This document shows, piece by piece, positions 16,161 to 22,585 of a stretch of DNA of 64,000 nucleotides (its first letter is position 1; each line of letters opens with the position of its first letter). The position numbers and the translations under genes are program-made. This DNA comes from Oligoflexia bacterium (GTDB lineage: Bacteria; Bdellovibrionota; UBA1018): positions 471,587 through 535,586 of the forward strand of contig CAVWVI010000004.1 of NCBI GenBank assembly GCA_963758495.1, read 5' to 3'. The notes beneath the pieces are model-generated. The model saw nothing but the letters and a program-made list of their open reading frames with translations, was not told where the DNA came from and did no database searches.

Positions 16161-16916
16161 TCAGTTCAACATGAGTTCCGCAGTCAGGGCGGAGTGATCA
16201 GAAAGATCCCCCCAAGGCCGTCCACTCAAGCAACGAGCATGCTTTAATCGAAGCCCTCTGAAATAAATTCGATCCAGCCGGAACGCGGGCAACCAACTGG
16301 GGAAAGTTCTTGCGTGATAGCCATGAATTGAATGATAGGCCTCGCTGACATCAAGTCTTTTTTCAAGTACTGGAGAAGCCTTCCCTCGCCAATCATTGAA
16401 ATCTCCTCCGATCACCAAAGGTTCGTCATGCGGAACATGGGACTCAATTCGACTGCAAAGTCTCACTATTTGTTGGGCCCTTTCAGCCTCTAATAATCCC
16501 AAATGCACACAGATTGCATGAAGGGGTTTCCTTTTACCAGGTATAGCAATCACGCCATGAAGAAGACCTCTCTTCTCCCATGAGTTTGTGGACACATCGA
16601 TATTCTCATAAAATAAAAAAGGATACTTACTCAAAATCGCATTTCCATGATGCCCCAGAGTATAGACAGCATTTTTTCCATAAGCATAGTGCGGCCAAAG
16701 TTCATGTGCCAAAAACTCAAATTGGGGTTGTGACGGCCAGCCTTTTATATTTTTGCTATGTGCTTCATGCTCACCCTGAACCTCTTGAAGAAAAATAAGT
16801 TCAGGATGTACCGAGTGGAGAGCTTCACGAATTTTTTTTAGAGTAAATTGACCATTACCTGAATTGAACCCCTTATGTATATTATATGAAATAACTCTTA
16901 CCCGTAATTTTTCCAT
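16161..16916 (-). CDS. endonuclease/exonuclease/phosphatase (EEP) family protein
   Basis: N-terminal VISYNIHKG...IFLQEV and C-terminal SDHSAL motifs typical of the EEP fold; overlaps the upstream gene by 19 nt. Confidence 0.7.
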   Translation of the reverse strand: MEKLRVRVISYNIHKGFNSGNGQFTLKKIREALHSVHPELIFLQEVQGEHEAHSKNIKGWPSQPQFEFLAHELWPHYAYGKNAVYTLGHHGNAILSKYPFLFYENIDVSTNSWEKRGLLHGVIAIPGKRKPLHAICVHLGLLEAERAQQIVRLCSRIESHVPHDEPLVIGGDFNDWRGKASPVLEKRLDVSEAYHSIHGYHARTFPSWLPAFRLDRIYFRGLRLKHARCLSGRPWGDLSDHSALTAELMLN

Positions 16917-18958
16917 AATTTAATTACAATTCTCCCTACGCTCATTAAAAATATTATTACAAATATATATCCAGCGTTGCGCTTAATTGGTTCTAAAATC
17001 AAGAGTGGAATGATGTAATGAACTCCCAAATAAAACCAAAAAGGAAGAATATACAAAACAGCAGAAAAAAAAATGACTGTACCTAAAAGATACCAAGGGA
17101 ACGGCACCCAAAATAACCCCTGATATGCAATTTTGGACCGAATACTTACTCTTGGGTCAGAAAGCATGGACACAAGAGTGGAAAATTTTCGAAGTCCCAT
17201 TCTCTCCGATAGCCATTTTGGAGCCGCTTCGCGATAAAACCGAGCTGCTGAAATTGGAAAAGCTCTTACTAAGCTATACCCCACAAAAGAAGCCACCCAG
17301 AAAGATGCCACGCTAATTCGGGCAGCGCGATCAGGACCTAGATGTAACATCGCCAAAACTTCTAGAAAAATAAAAGGCACCGGCAAAAGCCATACTGAAG
17401 ACATAAAAATTATATATAAAACTGACCAATCCCCCCATCCCTTCAAAACTCCCGTAACGCTCCAGGCGATTACAATTTCCAATCCCCAAACAAGCATGAG
17501 AGCATCAACTAAAAATAGAAAATGCCTTCGGGCTAACCGGGTCCCCTTCCATTTAATAAAATAAAACCACGGTAAGGGTGGATCAAAAAATATTTCCCAG
17601 GGTAGCCCTCGAAAATATTCTAATTTTTTACTCATGTGCTCCAACATAATTTTGGGTTTACATTCTCTAAAAAGAATCCCTGAACGAGCGCCATTTTGAT
17701 CTAGATTCCAATGACTCAATACCTTTTCTGCAACTCGCCGAATATGGCTCCGCTCAAACACAGTTTTTGCTTCAAATGTAAGATGAATTTCAGTATCAAT
17801 GCGAAGCGCACGAGATGCAAAATTTGCAGAACCTATTCCAAGGAATTTGTCATCGATCACAATAATTTTTGAATGAATATAAATAGGTCTCGGTGGTAAA
17901 CTAATTTCGGCTAAAGGAGCCCGCGCATACGGAAATCCCATAATTAATTTAATTCCTGAATAATTTGCTGCAATCTGCAGTTTATTTAATAACTCAAGCT
18001 CATAGGCCATCATATAACGTGTCCACGACCGAATCGGCTGTAAATCCGCAAGAACTAAAATAATCTCAAAATCTTTTCCCTTCATTTGATGAATTTTTGA
18101 AATCAACAGATCATTTACTATTTGCGACCAATAATATTGACCTTCAAGAATAATTCGATTCTCTGCGGCCTGGATCAGATCCCTAAATAAAAATTCCACT
18201 TCTCGGACCATTGAACTCCCTCGTAATGGGTGCTCAACTTGCGCAATAGTCCGACTCAAGTAAACACTATGGCCTATAGAATCACTTGAAAGAACTTTAA
18301 ATGAATACGAATCTGGAAATGAAATAGACGAAAGTGCTCGCCATCGAGCCGCAATATGATCATGGATCCCCGCACAAATTGGCCCTGTCACTTGTACTGC
18401 TAAGTCATGATAAGGACCATGATGCTCGCCGCTCCAATTTAAGGATCGACGAGGATCCATATAGAGATGCTGTGGACTATCCCAACGTTCATCACAAAGA
18501 TCAATACCGCCACAAAGAGCCGTTTTTCCATCAAACAAACATATTTTCTCATGATGAGATCCCCCAATAGGGTGCTTGTTATCAAAAATAAAATGAACAC
18601 GTGGATGAATATCTTCCCAGATACGCCCCTGCCAAATTTCTCTTTCAAGAACATAAAAGTAGGCATGATCCCAAATCAAAAAATAAACCCTAAATCCGGG
18701 CTTTTCCTGACAAAGTCGAATCACCTTTTCACGAAGAGTTTCTTTAGGTAAAGCTTGAAAACTCTGACCTTTCCGAAGAGGTCTTTTCAAACATAATCTA
18801 GAATCAATTTGCCATCCTACAAAAATAGCATATTCAGTGGCATCTTCCAGAAGTTCAGATACTCGGTCGTAGTAAGGACCTGCCTCCCAAATCTCTTCCC
18901 ATGAGTTTGCTGCTGCAATCCGATTAAAAGCACGTGCTGAAAGTAGGTTTGAATTCAC
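16898..18958 (-). CDS. phospholipase D/cardiolipin-synthase-like protein fused to a C-terminal DedA/VTT-like membrane domain
   Basis: Two HKD motifs (HHEKICLFDG and HSKIIVIDD...GSANF) in the N-terminal 400 aa; C-terminal ~250 aa polytopic with LLPVP...GPDRAARIS motif. Confidence 0.65.
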   Translation of the reverse strand: MNSNLLSARAFNRIAAANSWEEIWEAGPYYDRVSELLEDATEYAIFVGWQIDSRLCLKRPLRKGQSFQALPKETLREKVIRLCQEKPGFRVYFLIWDHAYFYVLEREIWQGRIWEDIHPRVHFIFDNKHPIGGSHHEKICLFDGKTALCGGIDLCDERWDSPQHLYMDPRRSLNWSGEHHGPYHDLAVQVTGPICAGIHDHIAARWRALSSISFPDSYSFKVLSSDSIGHSVYLSRTIAQVEHPLRGSSMVREVEFLFRDLIQAAENRIILEGQYYWSQIVNDLLISKIHQMKGKDFEIILVLADLQPIRSWTRYMMAYELELLNKLQIAANYSGIKLIMGFPYARAPLAEISLPPRPIYIHSKIIVIDDKFLGIGSANFASRALRIDTEIHLTFEAKTVFERSHIRRVAEKVLSHWNLDQNGARSGILFRECKPKIMLEHMSKKLEYFRGLPWEIFFDPPLPWFYFIKWKGTRLARRHFLFLVDALMLVWGLEIVIAWSVTGVLKGWGDWSVLYIIFMSSVWLLPVPFIFLEVLAMLHLGPDRAARISVASFWVASFVGYSLVRAFPISAARFYREAAPKWLSERMGLRKFSTLVSMLSDPRVSIRSKIAYQGLFWVPFPWYLLGTVIFFSAVLYILPFWFYLGVHYIIPLLILEPIKRNAGYIFVIIFLMSVGRIVIKLWKNYG

Positions 18959-18973
18959 GAAAACAAATTATAT

Positions 18974-19213
18974 CTAGTATTTTTTCCAATACTCAGGCGC
19001 AAGAACCCCAAGAAAACTAATAATAGAAAGTGCAAGAAATACAAAAAGTAAAAATCGACCTTGTTCGAAAGAAACAGCAGACCCATCCCATCCTAACATT
19101 ATTGCAAATAAACCAGCCAGGAGAAATCCGATGGATACTCGCACCATGATATTGCCCTCCACACAAGAGGCAGCAAACCTCATGCCCAGAAAGAAAAAAT
19201 TCTTATGCTGCAC
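18974..19213 (-). CDS. small membrane protein (2 predicted TM helices)
   Basis: 79-aa hydrophobic ORF tightly packed between the response regulator and the PLD gene. Confidence 0.35.
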   Translation of the reverse strand: MQHKNFFFLGMRFAASCVEGNIMVRVSIGFLLAGLFAIMLGWDGSAVSFEQGRFLLFVFLALSIISFLGVLAPEYWKKY

Positions 19214-19568
19214 CTTGGGAGCCTGCGGCTTGGAGGATCACTTGAGCAAGTTGTTCGATAGTATAAGGCTTCCCCAAAAACCAGGCACCTGGTAAATGAC
19301 GAGCTCGGCTTTCACCTTGTTGAGCCGCTGAAAGAACTACGGTGGGAGGCACCCGACTGAAAGTTGCAAGAATATTTTGATAAACGTCTTCGCCGCTCAT
19401 ACCTTGAAGAGTTAAATCTAATAGCATCACGTCAGGCCAACTTTGAGATAGGTAATCTAAAACCTTTTCTCCTTTATCTATCAAATCGGCTTGATGTCCA
19501 TAGGCTTCCAGAACCATTCCCAAGGTCTCTCGGATCGAAGAATCATCTTCAACTACTAAAACCCGCAT
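19203..19568 (-). CDS. single-domain response regulator (CheY-like receiver)
   Basis: MRVLVVEDD...DVMLLDLTLQGMSGEDV receiver motifs; 121 aa, no output domain. Confidence 0.8.
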   Translation of the reverse strand: MRVLVVEDDSSIRETLGMVLEAYGHQADLIDKGEKVLDYLSQSWPDVMLLDLTLQGMSGEDVYQNILATFSRVPPTVVLSAAQQGESRARHLPGAWFLGKPYTIEQLAQVILQAAGSQGAA

Positions 19569-19691: not shown

Positions 19692-21086
19692 ATGTCAACA
19701 CACCGCGAAGAACACGATTCTTTAGGAAACGTGAAAGTCCCAGCTCATGTACTCTATGGAGCACAAACTTTGAGAGCAATCGAGAACTATCCCATTTCAG
19801 GTCGCACAGCTCATCCATCGCTCATTCGAGCTTACCTGCGAATTAAATCTGCAGCAGCCGCGGCAAATCTGAAATACCAAGTATTAGAAGCAAAGAACTC
19901 TCAACTCATCACTGAAGCCGTAGAAGAGCTTTTGAAATATCCTGAAAAAGACTGGCCACAAATATTTCCTGTTGATCCCTATCAAGCTGGCGCGGGTACG
20001 AGCCAAAATATGAATATAAATGAAGTAGTGGCAAACGTAGCCAATCGAATTGCAAACCACCCTCTTGGAAGCTACAGCCCGATTCACCCTAATGACCATG
20101 TCAATCGATCTCAATCAACCAATGACAGCTTTCCAACCGCAATGAGGTTGGCGATTTTAGAAACCTCAAAATCACTCTCCCAGGCACTCCATGAACTTTC
20201 GAAGGCTTTTAATGAAAAAGCGAAAAAGTGGCAGATGATTCCAAAATCAGCCAGAACCCATCTGCAAGATGCCGTACCGATGACTCTAGGTCAGGAATTT
20301 TCTGCATATAGTGTAACAATTGAAAAATGCGCTCAATGGATTGATGATGGCAGAAATGCGATCAGAGAATTAGGCATCGGCGGAAGTGCTGCCGGCACTG
20401 GCTTAACCGTTCCTAAAGGTTATGCTGAAACCATAGTCTCTGAACTGGAAAAACTCACAGGTGAAAAATTAAGGTTATCCAAAAATCTCTGTGAAGCCAT
20501 GCAATCTCAATCTCCAGTGACTTACTATTCATCCATGTTAAGACTGGTCGCAATTGAAATGACCCGAATCTGCAATGATCTTAGACTGATGGCATCAGGT
20601 CCTATGACCGGCTTAGCTGAAATTCTACTTCCTGCAGTACAGCCAGGCAGCAGCATTATGCCTGGCAAAGTAAATCCATCTATTCTCGAAATGGCGAACC
20701 AAACTTGGTTTTCTGTATTAGGTTATGATCAGACCGTGATTTTTTCAGGACAAGCCGGACAACTTGAACTCAATGTAATGATGCCTATTATGGCCTATTC
20801 TATGCTGGAAGCTACACATGTCGCAACTCACACCCTAGAAGTGTTAAGGAAGCGTTGCATTGTAGGACTTGAACCTAATGAACCCCGTCTCAAACGATAT
20901 TTCGAAAGCACACCTCAAACCGCAACTGCCCTCAGCCCAAAACTAGGGTATGAAAAGACGGCTAAATTAGTTTCGGAATCTCTAGAAAAAGGAATATCCG
21001 TGATTGATTTAGTACGCGAAAAAGGCTTAATCCCCGAGGAGGAGCTAAAATCTCTCTTGGACATCCGTGCTTTGACGGGACTTTAA
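19692..21086 (+). CDS. class II fumarase/aspartase family lyase, motifs closest to aspartate ammonia-lyase
   Basis: Signature GSSIMPGKVNPS, LRAIENYPISG and HPNDHVNRSQSTNDSFPT motifs; 464 aa. Confidence 0.8.
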   Translation: MSTHREEHDSLGNVKVPAHVLYGAQTLRAIENYPISGRTAHPSLIRAYLRIKSAAAAANLKYQVLEAKNSQLITEAVEELLKYPEKDWPQIFPVDPYQAGAGTSQNMNINEVVANVANRIANHPLGSYSPIHPNDHVNRSQSTNDSFPTAMRLAILETSKSLSQALHELSKAFNEKAKKWQMIPKSARTHLQDAVPMTLGQEFSAYSVTIEKCAQWIDDGRNAIRELGIGGSAAGTGLTVPKGYAETIVSELEKLTGEKLRLSKNLCEAMQSQSPVTYYSSMLRLVAIEMTRICNDLRLMASGPMTGLAEILLPAVQPGSSIMPGKVNPSILEMANQTWFSVLGYDQTVIFSGQAGQLELNVMMPIMAYSMLEATHVATHTLEVLRKRCIVGLEPNEPRLKRYFESTPQTATALSPKLGYEKTAKLVSESLEKGISVIDLVREKGLIPEEELKSLLDIRALTGL

Positions 21087-22103
21087 TTCATCATGGACGG
21101 AGATTTCAACATCATCCATTGAGTCTCCGTCTTCTTCAAATTCAAGTTCCGGTTTAGCATCAGAACTGCATCCAGGTTGACCAGGGCCATTACCAATTCG
21201 AATATGAAGATGGTTACCATGTCCCGGCATATGACGAATGAACCGTTGGTAAACTTTCCACTCAGGGTCTTTCATTGCAAATTTGGAAAGCGCCCGAATA
21301 TGGCGTCGATCTAAAAAAACCGCCTTAATACATGCAAAAGGATTCTTAAAAATCTTTTTCAAAAGCCACCAATTTGTGACCGAATCAAATTGACGATGGA
21401 ACTTGATAGGTGATGTACTGTTCTTATTCACAGTTAAAAAACCAATATCTGCATCTTGTCCTGAAGTATGAGAAGCATGCCCTTTTTTACAACCGCCTCT
21501 AGGAGCTGAGATATTTCCAATGACTAAATTCACGCCAGATAGAGAGGGGCCCGAGTAGTTTTTGCTAATTTCACGGCCTACCCACTCCAACATTCCAGCC
21601 ATCGCATCCGTACCAAAATTTAAGCATTTCTGAGGAGACTGAATGATGAGTCGGTTCACAGAACTCGGAATCACTCTACGACCATAAGCCAAAAAACCGT
21701 TATTTACAGTACAGTAAGCTTGATCACCCCGTTTACCCATTTCTTGTGTCAATAAGCTGAGAATATCTCCTAATTTACCCGATGTAGCGGCGGCAGAATA
21801 CTCCATCTGCTCCGCTGTCATTTCATCACAATAACTGGCTTTAATACGCTTCGGGGAACAGCGCCCTCCCTTTGACCGCTTCTTCCTTCCTGGCACTCGC
21901 GCCCTTCCACAGCACTTATTCCCATTAAAAATAAAATCGGGGCTCCATTTTGAGCAAAACTGTGGAGAAGGTTCAGATGAAAAAACCGGCTTCATGAACT
22001 CAGATTCGGGAGAACAAGGCGGAAAAATAGGCAAAGTTTCAGCCAAACGTGTCGCAGCCTGTGCTGACACGCATTGAAATAAAAGGATTAAAATTGAAAG
22101 CAC
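21045..22103 (-). CDS. LAS-family zinc peptidase, MepA-like murein endopeptidase, exported
   Basis: Signal peptide MLSILILLFQCVSAQA; metal-ligand motifs GHASHTSGQDADIGF and HGNHLHIRIG. Confidence 0.5.
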   Translation of the reverse strand: MLSILILLFQCVSAQAATRLAETLPIFPPCSPESEFMKPVFSSEPSPQFCSKWSPDFIFNGNKCCGRARVPGRKKRSKGGRCSPKRIKASYCDEMTAEQMEYSAAATSGKLGDILSLLTQEMGKRGDQAYCTVNNGFLAYGRRVIPSSVNRLIIQSPQKCLNFGTDAMAGMLEWVGREISKNYSGPSLSGVNLVIGNISAPRGGCKKGHASHTSGQDADIGFLTVNKNSTSPIKFHRQFDSVTNWWLLKKIFKNPFACIKAVFLDRRHIRALSKFAMKDPEWKVYQRFIRHMPGHGNHLHIRIGNGPGQPGCSSDAKPELEFEEDGDSMDDVEISVHDELKSRQSTDVQERF

Positions 22104-22162: not shown

Positions 22163-22585
22163 ATGATAGGGTCAAAAGTTTATAGGAAAATTCTATGCCA
22201 GACAGTAATGAACCCAACGAATATAATGACGAATATAATGACGAATATAATAATGAATAGTAATAGTAATAATAATAAAAATGACGAATATTATTACCTG
22301 AACCCAGAAGATGTGGATCCGGTTCGAATTAAGAAAGAACGAGAAAAAGCTCGAAAATTAAAAAAATCTCAATGGTGGCTCAGATTGCTCAATCAAGGCC
22401 TATGTCATTATTGTCAAAAAAAGTTTCCTTCCTCTCAATTGACGATGGACCATGTAGTCCCATTAGCTCGCGGTGGAGAAAGCAAGCCTGGAAATATTGT
22501 ACCCGCTTGTTCAGATTGTAATCGTAATAAAAAACTGGCCACCCCTGTGGACTTGCTTTTGAGAAAAATAGACGAGGAAAGTTGA
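22163..22585 (+). CDS. HNH endonuclease (small); N-terminal boundary uncertain
   Basis: HNH core CHYCQKKF...MDHVVPLARGG...NIVPACSDCNRNK; upstream part is AT-rich low complexity (NIMTNIMTNI), in-frame GTG near 22308 is an alternative start. Confidence 0.7.
   Translation: MIGSKVYRKILCQTVMNPTNIMTNIMTNIIMNSNSNNNKNDEYYYLNPEDVDPVRIKKEREKARKLKKSQWWLRLLNQGLCHYCQKKFPSSQLTMDHVVPLARGGESKPGNIVPACSDCNRNKKLATPVDLLLRKIDEES

What the first reader, a model, noticed from the sequence alone, without database searches (positions are those of the whole stretch)
16161..19568. Operon of receiver-only regulator, small membrane protein, PLD-DedA fusion and EEP phosphoesterase
Four minus-strand genes overlap or abut (19203/19213, 18958/18974, 16898/16916). 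The large protein has two HKD motifs of phospholipase D/cardiolipin synthase fused to a C-terminal polytopic DedA/VTT-like domain, a family implicated in lipid translocation. It is followed by an endonuclease/exonuclease/phosphatase-fold enzyme. The layout suggests a regulated membrane-lipid remodelling module in which headgroup chemistry and a flippase-like domain sit in one polypeptide.
Basis: partly seen in the sequence, partly recalled or inferred. Interest (0 to 1): 0.45.

Follow-up and report, generated by a model that had tools for sequence, protein, structure and literature searches.

The report
PLD–DedA lipid enzyme with YbhP partner
This is a real, conserved gene pair in a Bdellovibrio-like bacterium: a phospholipase-D-type lipid enzyme fused to a divergent DedA/VTT lipid-flipping membrane domain, followed by an orthologue of the uncharacterised E. 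coli enzyme YbhP; the fusion type is already catalogued and the neighbouring response regulator is not a conserved partner.

Summary
All four minus-strand ORFs exist, and the 686-aa protein is one uninterrupted gene with two intact HKD motifs. The PLD half is closest in fold to human PLD1/2 and plant PLDα, not to ClsB. The C-terminal 230 aa gives no Pfam hit on its own. It is nevertheless a divergent VTT/DedA domain: 8 of 70 family members hit PF09335, the profile–profile match to verified VTT domains has 94% probability, and an exhaustive profile search finds only VTT proteins outside the family.

The downstream EEP protein is 44% identical over its full length to E. coli YbhP. YbhP sits in the ybhP–clsB–ybhN operon, which also combines an EEP, a PLD and a putative lipid translocase. 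PLD‑VTT followed by EEP is the conserved unit: 27 of 31 Bdellovibrionota loci have it, as do canonical PLD‑VTT fusions in other phyla.

The small membrane gene is real but sporadic (5 loci) and starts at Met23 (57 aa), so it does not overlap the regulator gene. The receiver gene is convergent with the pair in 25 of 26 relatives. It lies on the same strand here only because the cassette is inverted, so "regulated operon" is not supported. PLD–DedA fusions were already listed by Roney & Rudner (2023). This is a new, divergent member of a known kind. Substrate and chemistry remain unknown.

The parts
16161..16916 (-). YbhP-type EEP (endonuclease/exonuclease/phosphatase fold) Mg2+-dependent phosphoesterase, 251 aa, no signal peptide or TM segment
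   Evidence: PF03372 E=4e-21. 44% identity over full length to E. coli YbhP, E=3e-78. Catalytic set N12, E45, D172, N174, D215, D240, H241 invariant in 39 homologues. AF2 pLDDT 93.1. Nearest folds are bacterial EEPs, TDP2 and neutral sphingomyelinase.
16898..18958 (-). PLD-VTT fusion protein, 686 aa, GTG start; one continuous ORF
   Evidence: ORF. An identical 686-aa gene call exists in public data. More than 100 full-length homologues at 37-56% identity. AF2 pLDDT 90.8, pTM 0.89.
17594..18958 (-). N-terminal PLD catalytic domain (aa 1-455), eukaryote-type 'true PLD' fold, inferred cytoplasmic
   Evidence: PLDc and PLDc_2 above Pfam cut-offs. Foldseek best hits are human PLD1/PLD2 (E~1e-23) and plant PLD-alpha. 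Only 19% identity to ClsB.
18530..18553 (-). HKD motif 1 (H136-E-K-x4-D143)
   Evidence: Translates to HEKICLFD. H136, K138 and D143 are invariant in 70 sequences.
17852..17875 (-). HKD motif 2 (H362-S-K-x4-D369)
   Evidence: Translates to HSKIIVID. H362, K364 and D369 are invariant.
16901..17593 (-). Linker motif FFDPxxPW plus divergent VTT/DedA membrane domain (aa 456-686)
   Evidence: No direct Pfam hit. 8/70 family members hit PF09335, best 3.2e-7. hhalign against verified VTT domains: 94.3% probability, E=9.7e-8, 135 columns. In an exhaustive profile search, 10 of 10 out-of-family hits tested are VTT_dom. The helix pattern in the AF2 model is compatible with two re-entrant loops.
18974..19147 (-). 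Small two-TM membrane protein, 57 aa from Met23 (the longest ORF would extend to 19213); sporadic accessory of the cassette
   Evidence: Homologues lie immediately upstream of the PLD gene on the same strand in L002, L003, L008 and L014. A leave-one-out HMM finds it at E=2.9e-7 versus next best 2.5. An independent gene call also gives 57 aa. No family assignment.
19203..19568 (-). Receiver-only response regulator, 121 aa; a syntenic neighbour, possibly co-transcribed in this genome only, not a conserved module member
   Evidence: PF00072 E=3.3e-16. Convergent orientation in 25 relatives; same strand upstream only in L016 and the window.

Best explanation
The conserved unit is a two-gene (sometimes three-gene) membrane-lipid module, not a four-gene regulated operon. 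Gene 1 encodes a cytoplasm-facing HKD phospholipase-D-type enzyme that hydrolyses or transfers phosphatidyl groups. It is covalently anchored to a divergent DedA/VTT domain, a family whose characterised members move lipids between bilayer leaflets. Gene 2 encodes a soluble Mg2+-dependent phosphoesterase orthologous to E. coli YbhP. Proposed mechanism: the PLD domain changes the head group of a glycerophospholipid at the inner leaflet. The attached VTT domain feeds substrate to it or redistributes product across the bilayer. The YbhP-type enzyme performs a coupled phosphoester cleavage in the same pathway. The module parallels E. coli ybhP-clsB-ybhN, with the translocase role taken by a fused VTT domain instead of a separate PplT/YbhN protein. 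Shown here: domain identities, intact catalytic residues, the fusion, and conservation of the PLD-VTT/EEP pair. Inferred: topology, lipid substrate, direction of transport, and what the EEP enzyme cleaves.
For: Two invariant HKD motifs and a PLD1/2-like fold. VTT identity from three independent tests. The EEP gene lies directly downstream on the same strand in 27 of 31 fusion loci with enough flanking DNA. This holds in a second, unrelated genomic context (L018, L020, L022). Canonical PLD-VTT fusions from Alphaproteobacteria, Acidobacteriota and a delta-proteobacterial MAG (VTT_dom E 1e-22 to 1e-25) also have an EEP gene directly downstream, and nothing else is conserved around them. The window EEP is 44% identical to YbhP, and a distant-fusion EEP is 29% identical, E=8e-20. 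The E. coli ybhP-clsB-ybhN layout was confirmed. YbhN/PplT is proposed as a phospholipid translocator that interacts with ClsB (10.1101/2022.03.11.483950). DedA members are implicated in lipid transport, and DedA-PLD fusions have been noted (PMC10193950). There is no signal peptide or TM segment before the PLD domain, and a positively charged juxtamembrane stretch (KWKGTRLARRH) precedes TM1.
Against: There are no biochemical data for any PLD-VTT fusion or for YbhP. The window family's VTT domain has lost the canonical second re-entrant-loop signature (R..P..PF...N..AG replaced by DPRxSxRSKIAYQG) and falls below Pfam detection, so it may serve only as an anchor. The EEP fold matches do not distinguish lipid from nucleic-acid phosphodiesterases. 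The PLD half is not ClsB-like (19% identity), so the E. coli analogy rests on the shared EEP partner and the architecture. Three fusion loci lack the EEP gene.
Confidence: 0.6

Rival explanations
1. One reading: a four-gene operon in which the receiver-only response regulator controls a lipid-remodelling module made of the small membrane protein, PLD-VTT and EEP.
For: In this genome all four genes are on one strand with short gaps (55 bp, 15 bp, and a 19-bp overlap). No terminator-like site lies between the receiver gene and the PLD gene. L016 shows the same orientation. The receiver has an intact acidic pocket, acceptor Asp and Lys (read from the sequence).
Against: The receiver gene is convergent with the EEP gene in 25 of 26 relatives that have it. 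It is absent from the pair in other contexts and in other phyla. The surrounding block is ordinary housekeeping synteny. A receiver-only protein has no output domain to regulate transcription, and no histidine kinase gene is adjacent.
Confidence: 0.12
2. The VTT-derived domain is only a membrane anchor with no transport function. The protein is then simply a membrane-tethered hydrolytic PLD producing phosphatidic acid, and the EEP gene is an independent neighbour.
For: The canonical VTT signature motifs are degraded and Pfam fails to detect the domain in 62 of 70 members. Some relatives (L039, L040, L045) carry only a two-TM tail instead of VTT.
Against: Family-specific residues in the two predicted re-entrant loops are strongly conserved (P528, G541, G560, Y561, R565, R590, P602, K609, G614, W622), which argues for selection on more than hydrophobicity. 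The EEP gene stays linked in three different contexts and across phyla, and L039 and L045 keep it too.
Confidence: 0.2
3. The pair is a nucleic-acid-directed system, such as a defence or repair nuclease pair. PLD-family nucleases (Nuc, DrmC) and EEP nucleases (ExoIII, TDP2) both exist.
For: Weak DrmC similarity (22-25 bits). TDP2 is among the best structural matches of the EEP protein.
Against: The DrmC scores are far below the cut-off (25 vs 133 bits) and reflect only the shared HKD motif. The best fold matches are lipid PLDs (PLD1/2, PLD-alpha). The enzyme is fused to a polytopic lipid-transporter-family domain. The genes sit in core housekeeping synteny with no mobile-element or defence-island features. 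PADLOC gives no hit for the EEP protein.
Confidence: 0.04

Closest known systems
DedA-phospholipase D domain fusions catalogued by Roney & Rudner, PNAS 2023 (PMC10193950, Fig. 5)
   Same: Same architecture: an N-terminal two-HKD PLD domain and a C-terminal DedA/VTT domain. The window protein is homologous along its whole length to canonical examples found here (L036-L044: PLD half 26-31% identity, shared DPxxP[LW] linker motif, VTT match by hhalign).
   Different: The window family (Bdellovibrionota/Oligoflexia) has a VTT domain so divergent that Pfam misses it in most members. The conserved YbhP-type EEP partner and the occasional small 2-TM gene are not mentioned in the text of that paper that I could read. 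None of these fusions has been characterised experimentally.
E. coli/Salmonella ybhP-clsB-ybhN operon (EEP + PLD-type cardiolipin synthase B + PplT/PF03706 membrane protein)
   Same: It has the same three kinds of component. The EEP proteins are clear orthologues (44% identity). Genes overlap or abut on one strand. Both translocase candidates belong to families proposed to flip phospholipids.
   Different: The gene order is EEP-PLD-membrane protein, with three separate proteins. The PLD is ClsB-type (19% identity to the window PLD). The membrane partner belongs to an unrelated family (PF03706, no similarity).
Eukaryote-type phospholipase D (human PLD1/PLD2, plant PLD-alpha)
   Same: Best structural match of the catalytic half (Foldseek E 1e-23 to 1e-17). 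It shares the extended motifs HHEK...GG(I)DL(C)..RWD and IYIHSK...DD...IGSAN.
   Different: It has no PX/PH or C2 regulatory domains, is only ~455 aa, has 17-20% identity, and is fused to a membrane domain.
Standalone bacterial DedA/TVP38 proteins (PetA, UptA, YqjA/YghB)
   Same: Superfamily membership of the C-terminal domain.
   Different: It is fused rather than free, has divergent signature motifs, and has no functional data.

Membership tests
PLD superfamily (HKD enzymes) | Two HxKxxxxD motifs in one chain | tested here: met
   H136/K138/D143 and H362/K364/D369 are invariant in 70 homologues.
PLD superfamily (HKD enzymes) | Pfam PLDc / PLDc_2 above the gathering score | tested here: met
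   PLDc 41.3 bits (cut-off 21.9); PLDc_2 44.3 bits (cut-off 27).
PLD superfamily (HKD enzymes) | Bilobed PLD fold | tested here: met
   AF2 pLDDT 90.8. Foldseek PLD1/PLD2 E~1e-23, probability 1.00.
PLD superfamily (HKD enzymes) | Phosphatidyl-transfer or hydrolysis activity on lipid | not testable with these tools
   Needs an enzyme assay or lipidomics.
DedA / VTT domain (PF09335) | Pfam VTT_dom hit on the protein itself | tested here: not met
   No hit for the window protein or its isolated C-terminus even at E<=10.
DedA / VTT domain (PF09335) | Homology to verified VTT domains by transitive or profile methods | tested here: met
   8/70 orthologues hit PF09335 (best 3.2e-7). hhalign 94.3% probability, E=9.7e-8. 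10 of 10 out-of-family hits of the family profile are VTT_dom.
DedA / VTT domain (PF09335) | Canonical re-entrant-loop signatures (P-x-P...G...G-R; R..P..PF...N..AG) | tested here: inconclusive
   The loop-1 P-x-P and the G...R motif are kept (LLPVPF; GY...R.FP). The loop-2 signature is replaced by DPRxSxRSKIAYQG, with only the Pro and final Gly aligned.
DedA / VTT domain (PF09335) | Lipid scrambling or flipping activity | not testable with these tools
   Needs a proteoliposome or in vivo leaflet assay.
YbhP-type EEP phosphoesterase | Full-length similarity to E. coli YbhP, with EEP catalytic residues | tested here: met
   44% identity over 249 aa, E=3e-78. PF03372 E=4e-21. Invariant N12, E45, D172, N174, D215, D240, H241.
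YbhP-type EEP phosphoesterase | Gene adjacent to a PLD-superfamily gene | tested here: met
   19-bp overlap in the window. 27/31 relatives, the distant fusions and the E. coli operon show the same adjacency.
ClsB-type cardiolipin synthase | NCBIfam ClsB / bacterial cardiolipin synthase model above cut-off | tested here: not met
   ClsB 20.2 bits vs cut-off 281; bac_cardiolipin 22.4 vs 290. 19% identity to ClsB.
Two-component-regulated operon | Regulator gene conserved in the same transcription unit as the targets | tested here: not met
   Opposite strand in 25 of 26 relatives with the gene; absent in other contexts.
DISARM DrmC / defence PLD | DrmC model above cut-off, with a defence gene context | tested here: not met
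   25 bits vs cut-off 133. PADLOC 22 bits, with no partner genes.

The most novel reading that the evidence does not exclude
A PLD-type phosphatidyl-transferase, a YbhP-type EEP phosphoesterase and a leaflet translocase may form an ancient, widely distributed three-part lipid synthesis and export module. In it, two unrelated translocase families substitute for each other: a fused DedA/VTT domain in Bdellovibrionota, Alphaproteobacteria and Acidobacteriota, and a separate PplT/YbhN protein in Enterobacteria. YbhP would be an obligatory catalytic partner of the PLD enzyme. That would give the orphan proteins YbhP and YbhN, and the PLD-DedA fusions, one shared and testable function.
Probability: 0.3. 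Interest if true: 0.6.

Novelty: new member of a known kind. Interest (0 to 1): 0.35.

Why it matters
DedA proteins are only now being recognised as lipid flippases or scramblases, and their substrates are mostly unknown. A fusion to a catalytic PLD domain points to the class of lipid that is handled. The shared YbhP-type partner links these fusions to the E. coli ybhP-clsB-ybhN operon, where genetics is easy. YbhP is a conserved orphan enzyme, and YbhN is a proposed translocator without a phenotype. If the parallel holds, one set of experiments could assign functions to three orphan families. For this window specifically, the result is an annotation correction: a VTT domain missed by Pfam, a corrected small-ORF start, and a regulator that is not part of the module.

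Tried and rejected
- YbhN-like C-terminus: I tested whether the C-terminal domain was YbhN/PF03706-like, which would mirror E. coli exactly. There is no similarity.
- ClsB orthology of the PLD half: rejected.
- Family for the small protein: Pfam gave only sub-threshold noise, with a faint DUF1328 hit (E=0.059) for one homologue and NCBIfam PRK13682 at E=0.031. It is left unassigned.
- Inversion breakpoints: no convincing inverted repeats flank the cassette.
- Promoter and terminator scan: not above the shuffled expectation for promoters, and nothing informative lies between the receiver and PLD genes.
- Foldseek against AFDB50: the library was unavailable.
- Sequence search of the EEP protein against PDB: no hit. 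The fold search gave only generic EEP phosphodiesterases.
- Defence-system reading: rejected.
Taxonomy is inferred only from relatives.
- Literature: searches for YbhP function and for PLD-VTT/TVP38 fusions returned nothing beyond PMC10193950 and the PplT preprint.
Full report
**Observation**

The window carries four minus-strand ORFs at exactly the stated coordinates. These are a 251-aa protein (16161-16916), a 686-aa protein (16898-18958, GTG start), a 79-aa ORF (18974-19213) and a 121-aa protein (19203-19568).

Pfam confirms Exo_endo_phos for the first (E=4e-21). It gives PLDc and PLDc_2 above their cut-offs for the second, and Response_reg for the fourth (E=3.3e-16). The small ORF has no hit.

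The large ORF is one uninterrupted frame. Its two HKD motifs are HEKICLFD (aa 136-143, nt 18530-18553) and HSKIIVID (aa 362-369, nt 17852-17875). An identical 686-aa gene call exists in public data. So the refutation condition "two genes split by an overlooked stop" does not apply.

**The C-terminal domain**

A direct scan does not support DedA. Neither the whole protein nor its isolated last 248 aa hits PF09335, even at E<=10. I therefore tested the assignment three other ways.

- The protein belongs to a family of more than 100 full-length homologues (37-56% identity), nearly all from Bdellovibrionota, Oligoflexia or Bacteriovoracaceae MAGs. Scanning 70 aligned members one by one, 8 hit VTT_dom, the best at 3.2e-7.
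- More distant loci from Alphaproteobacteria (Geminicoccaceae, Benzoatithermus), Acidobacteriota and a delta-proteobacterial MAG encode PLD proteins with unambiguous VTT domains (E 1e-22 to 1e-25). An hhalign comparison of the window family's C-terminal profile (A2) with these verified VTT domains (A3) gives 94.3% probability and E=9.7e-8 over 135 columns.
- An exhaustive hmmsearch of the A2 profile against 1.84 billion representatives finds the family itself and then about 60 standalone proteins of roughly 200-260 aa. All 10 that I tested are VTT_dom proteins (E 1e-6 to 1e-27).

The domain is therefore a divergent VTT/DedA domain, and no other family competes. It keeps the loop-1 P-x-P (LLPVPF) and a G-Y-x3-R motif. 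The canonical loop-2 signature R..P..PF...N..AG is replaced by DPRxSxRSKIAYQG, which explains why Pfam misses it. A conserved juxtamembrane motif (FFDPxxPW here, DPxxPL in the canonical fusions) links the two halves in both groups. This argues for one ancestral fusion rather than independent events.

**The catalytic half**

The AF2 model built from the 70-sequence alignment is confident (pLDDT 90.8, pTM 0.89).

- Foldseek against PDB ranks the human PLD1/PLD2 catalytic domains first (E~1e-23). Plant PLD-alpha, P. aeruginosa PldA, PssA and Streptomyces PLD follow.
- The extended motifs (HHEK...GGIDLCDERWD; IYIHSK...DD...IGSANF) are those of eukaryote-type PLDs; this point rests on my own knowledge.
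- The domain is not ClsB-like. It has 19% identity to E. coli ClsB and scores 20 bits against a cut-off of 281 for the NCBIfam ClsB model.
- No signal peptide or TM segment precedes the PLD domain, and a basic stretch precedes TM1. From this I infer a cytoplasmic catalytic domain with N-in, C-in topology. This is not demonstrated.

**The EEP partner**

The 251-aa protein is 44% identical over its whole length to E. coli YbhP (E=3e-78). I confirmed in NC_000913.3 that ybhP, clsB and ybhN overlap or abut on one strand. YbhN is a PF03706 protein, renamed PplT in a preprint that proposes it as a phospholipid translocator and reports a two-hybrid interaction with ClsB; the same preprint describes YbhP as of unknown function (10.1101/2022.03.11.483950).

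The EEP catalytic residues are invariant in 39 homologues. The AF2 model is confident (pLDDT 93.1). However, the nearest solved folds are unannotated bacterial EEPs, TDP2 and human neutral sphingomyelinase, so the fold does not reveal the substrate. Within the clade the EEP protein is more conserved (60-74% identity) than the PLD-VTT protein (45-56%).

**What is conserved around it**

I compared the window proteins with all ORFs of 79 related loci.

- Of the 31 fusion loci with at least 1 kb of downstream sequence, 27 have the EEP gene directly downstream on the same strand. One has it inverted (L025), and three lack it (L009, L017, L024).
- The pair persists in a second, unrelated context of hemerythrin, O-methyltransferase and HAD hydrolase genes (L018, L020).
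- The pair is also present in the canonical PLD-VTT fusions of other phyla, where nothing else is conserved. The EEP of one such locus is 29% identical to YbhP (E=8e-20).

The receiver gene behaves differently. It sits in a block of housekeeping synteny: GlpD, AspRS, [PLD-VTT, EEP], receiver, aspartase/fumarase-class lyase, M74 peptidase. In 25 relatives it lies on the opposite strand, convergent with the EEP gene. Only L016 and the window have it upstream on the same strand, because the PLD-VTT/EEP cassette is inverted between AspRS and the receiver gene. It is absent from the pair in other contexts. Regulation of the module by this receiver is thus not supported by comparative evidence. Read-through transcription in this particular genome remains possible, since no terminator-like site lies between them.

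**The small ORF**

A two-TM ORF with a shared motif (M-[LV]-[RK]-x-S...G-[VI]-[SP]-F-E-x-[GA]-R...F) lies immediately upstream of the PLD gene on the same strand in L002, L003, L008 and L014. An HMM built from those four alone finds the window ORF at E=2.9e-7 among 13,802 ORFs, with the next best hit at E=2.5.

All homologues begin at the position of the window's Met23, and an independent gene call gives 57 aa. The gene is therefore 18974-19147. It sits 55 bp after the receiver gene and 15 bp before the PLD gene, so the reported 19203/19213 overlap is an artefact. The gene follows the cassette rather than the regulator, but it is present in only about 5 of 32 loci. It has no family assignment.

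**Mechanism**

Best-supported reading (confidence about 0.6): a cytoplasm-facing HKD enzyme exchanges or removes phospholipid head groups. A DedA-type domain anchors it and probably couples it functionally, moving substrate or product between leaflets. It works together with a YbhP-type Mg2+-dependent phosphoesterase.

The domain identities, catalytic residues and gene linkage are shown. The topology, the substrate, the direction of transport and the EEP reaction are inferred.

The closest functional analogue is ybhP-clsB-ybhN. In Salmonella, ClsB is linked to the biosynthesis of trehalose phospholipids (abstract of PMC6446866); that ClsB transfers phosphatidyl groups to trehalose rather than mainly making cardiolipin is my recollection of that paper, which I did not read here. 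This shows that such PLD enzymes can have unexpected acceptors.

Rivals:
- A regulated four-gene operon (about 0.12).
- The VTT remnant acts as a mere anchor and the EEP gene is unrelated (about 0.2).
- A nucleic-acid or defence role (about 0.04). Only sub-threshold DrmC similarity exists.

**Novelty**

Roney & Rudner (PMC10193950) already list DedA fusions to phospholipase D domains as bioinformatic support for DedA lipid transport, so the architecture is a known kind, though uncharacterised.

What this analysis adds:
- A Bdellovibrionota-wide divergent branch that domain databases annotate as PLD only.
- The constant YbhP-type partner, which ties the fusions to the enterobacterial ybhP-clsB-ybhN operon and suggests non-homologous replacement of the translocase (VTT versus PplT).
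- A sporadic small membrane-protein accessory.

I found no paper making the YbhP connection, but the searchable library is incomplete.

Interest is moderate to low (0.35). This is a solid, well-conserved module of unknown chemistry and a useful lead for orphan proteins. It is not a surprising new system, and part of the original interpretation (regulation) fails.

Noticed in passing
window 16161-19147 versus L001-L035: The small/PLD-VTT/EEP cassette is inverted in the window (and in L016) relative to about 25 related genomes, between otherwise collinear AspRS and receiver genes. No inverted repeats flank the breakpoints.
   Followed up: partly
window 17510-17593 (aa 456-483 of the fusion): A conserved juxtamembrane motif FFDPxxPW (D459 and P460 invariant) lies between the PLD and VTT halves. 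A related DPxxPL motif occupies the same position in canonical PLD-VTT fusions of other phyla, suggesting a functional hinge or interface.
   Followed up: partly
L039, L040, L045: PLD relatives from Alphaproteobacteria MAGs (L040 and L045 named Geminicoccaceae) end in a short two-TM tail instead of a VTT domain. L039 and L045 still keep the EEP gene downstream, so these may be fusions that lost the VTT domain.
   Followed up: no
L024, L025, L012: There are signs of decay or rearrangement in some relatives. In L024 the PLD match stops at aa 464 and there is no EEP gene. In L025 the PLD ORF is split and the EEP gene is on the opposite strand. In L012 the PLD-VTT match is split across two frames.
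   Followed up: no
L018 4375-4893, L020 974-1630 and downstream: A second conserved context for the pair: a hemerythrin-domain gene lies divergently upstream, with O-methyltransferase and HAD hydrolase genes downstream.
   Followed up: partly
window 21045-22103 (-) and 19692-21086 (+): A Peptidase_M74 (MepA-like murein endopeptidase) gene converges on the aspartase/fumarase-class lyase gene, and their 3' ends overlap by 42 bp. Both are part of the conserved synteny block.
   Followed up: no
window 22163-22585 (+): A 140-aa ORF with an Asn/Thr-rich low-complexity N-terminus (TNIMTNIMTNIIMNSNSNNNKN), followed by what looks like an HNH-type Cys/His nuclease motif. This was read from the translation only.
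   Followed up: no
window 16161-16916 versus 16898-18958: Within the clade the EEP protein is markedly more conserved (60-74% identity) than its PLD-VTT partner (45-56%), and the VTT part is the least conserved (22-41%).
   Followed up: partly
L080 (E. coli NC_000913.3 823736-825040): A Salmonella ChIP-seq paper reports a sigma-E binding site in the ybhP/ybhQ intergenic region (PMC4577112). This hints that the enterobacterial counterpart operon responds to envelope stress.
   Followed up: no
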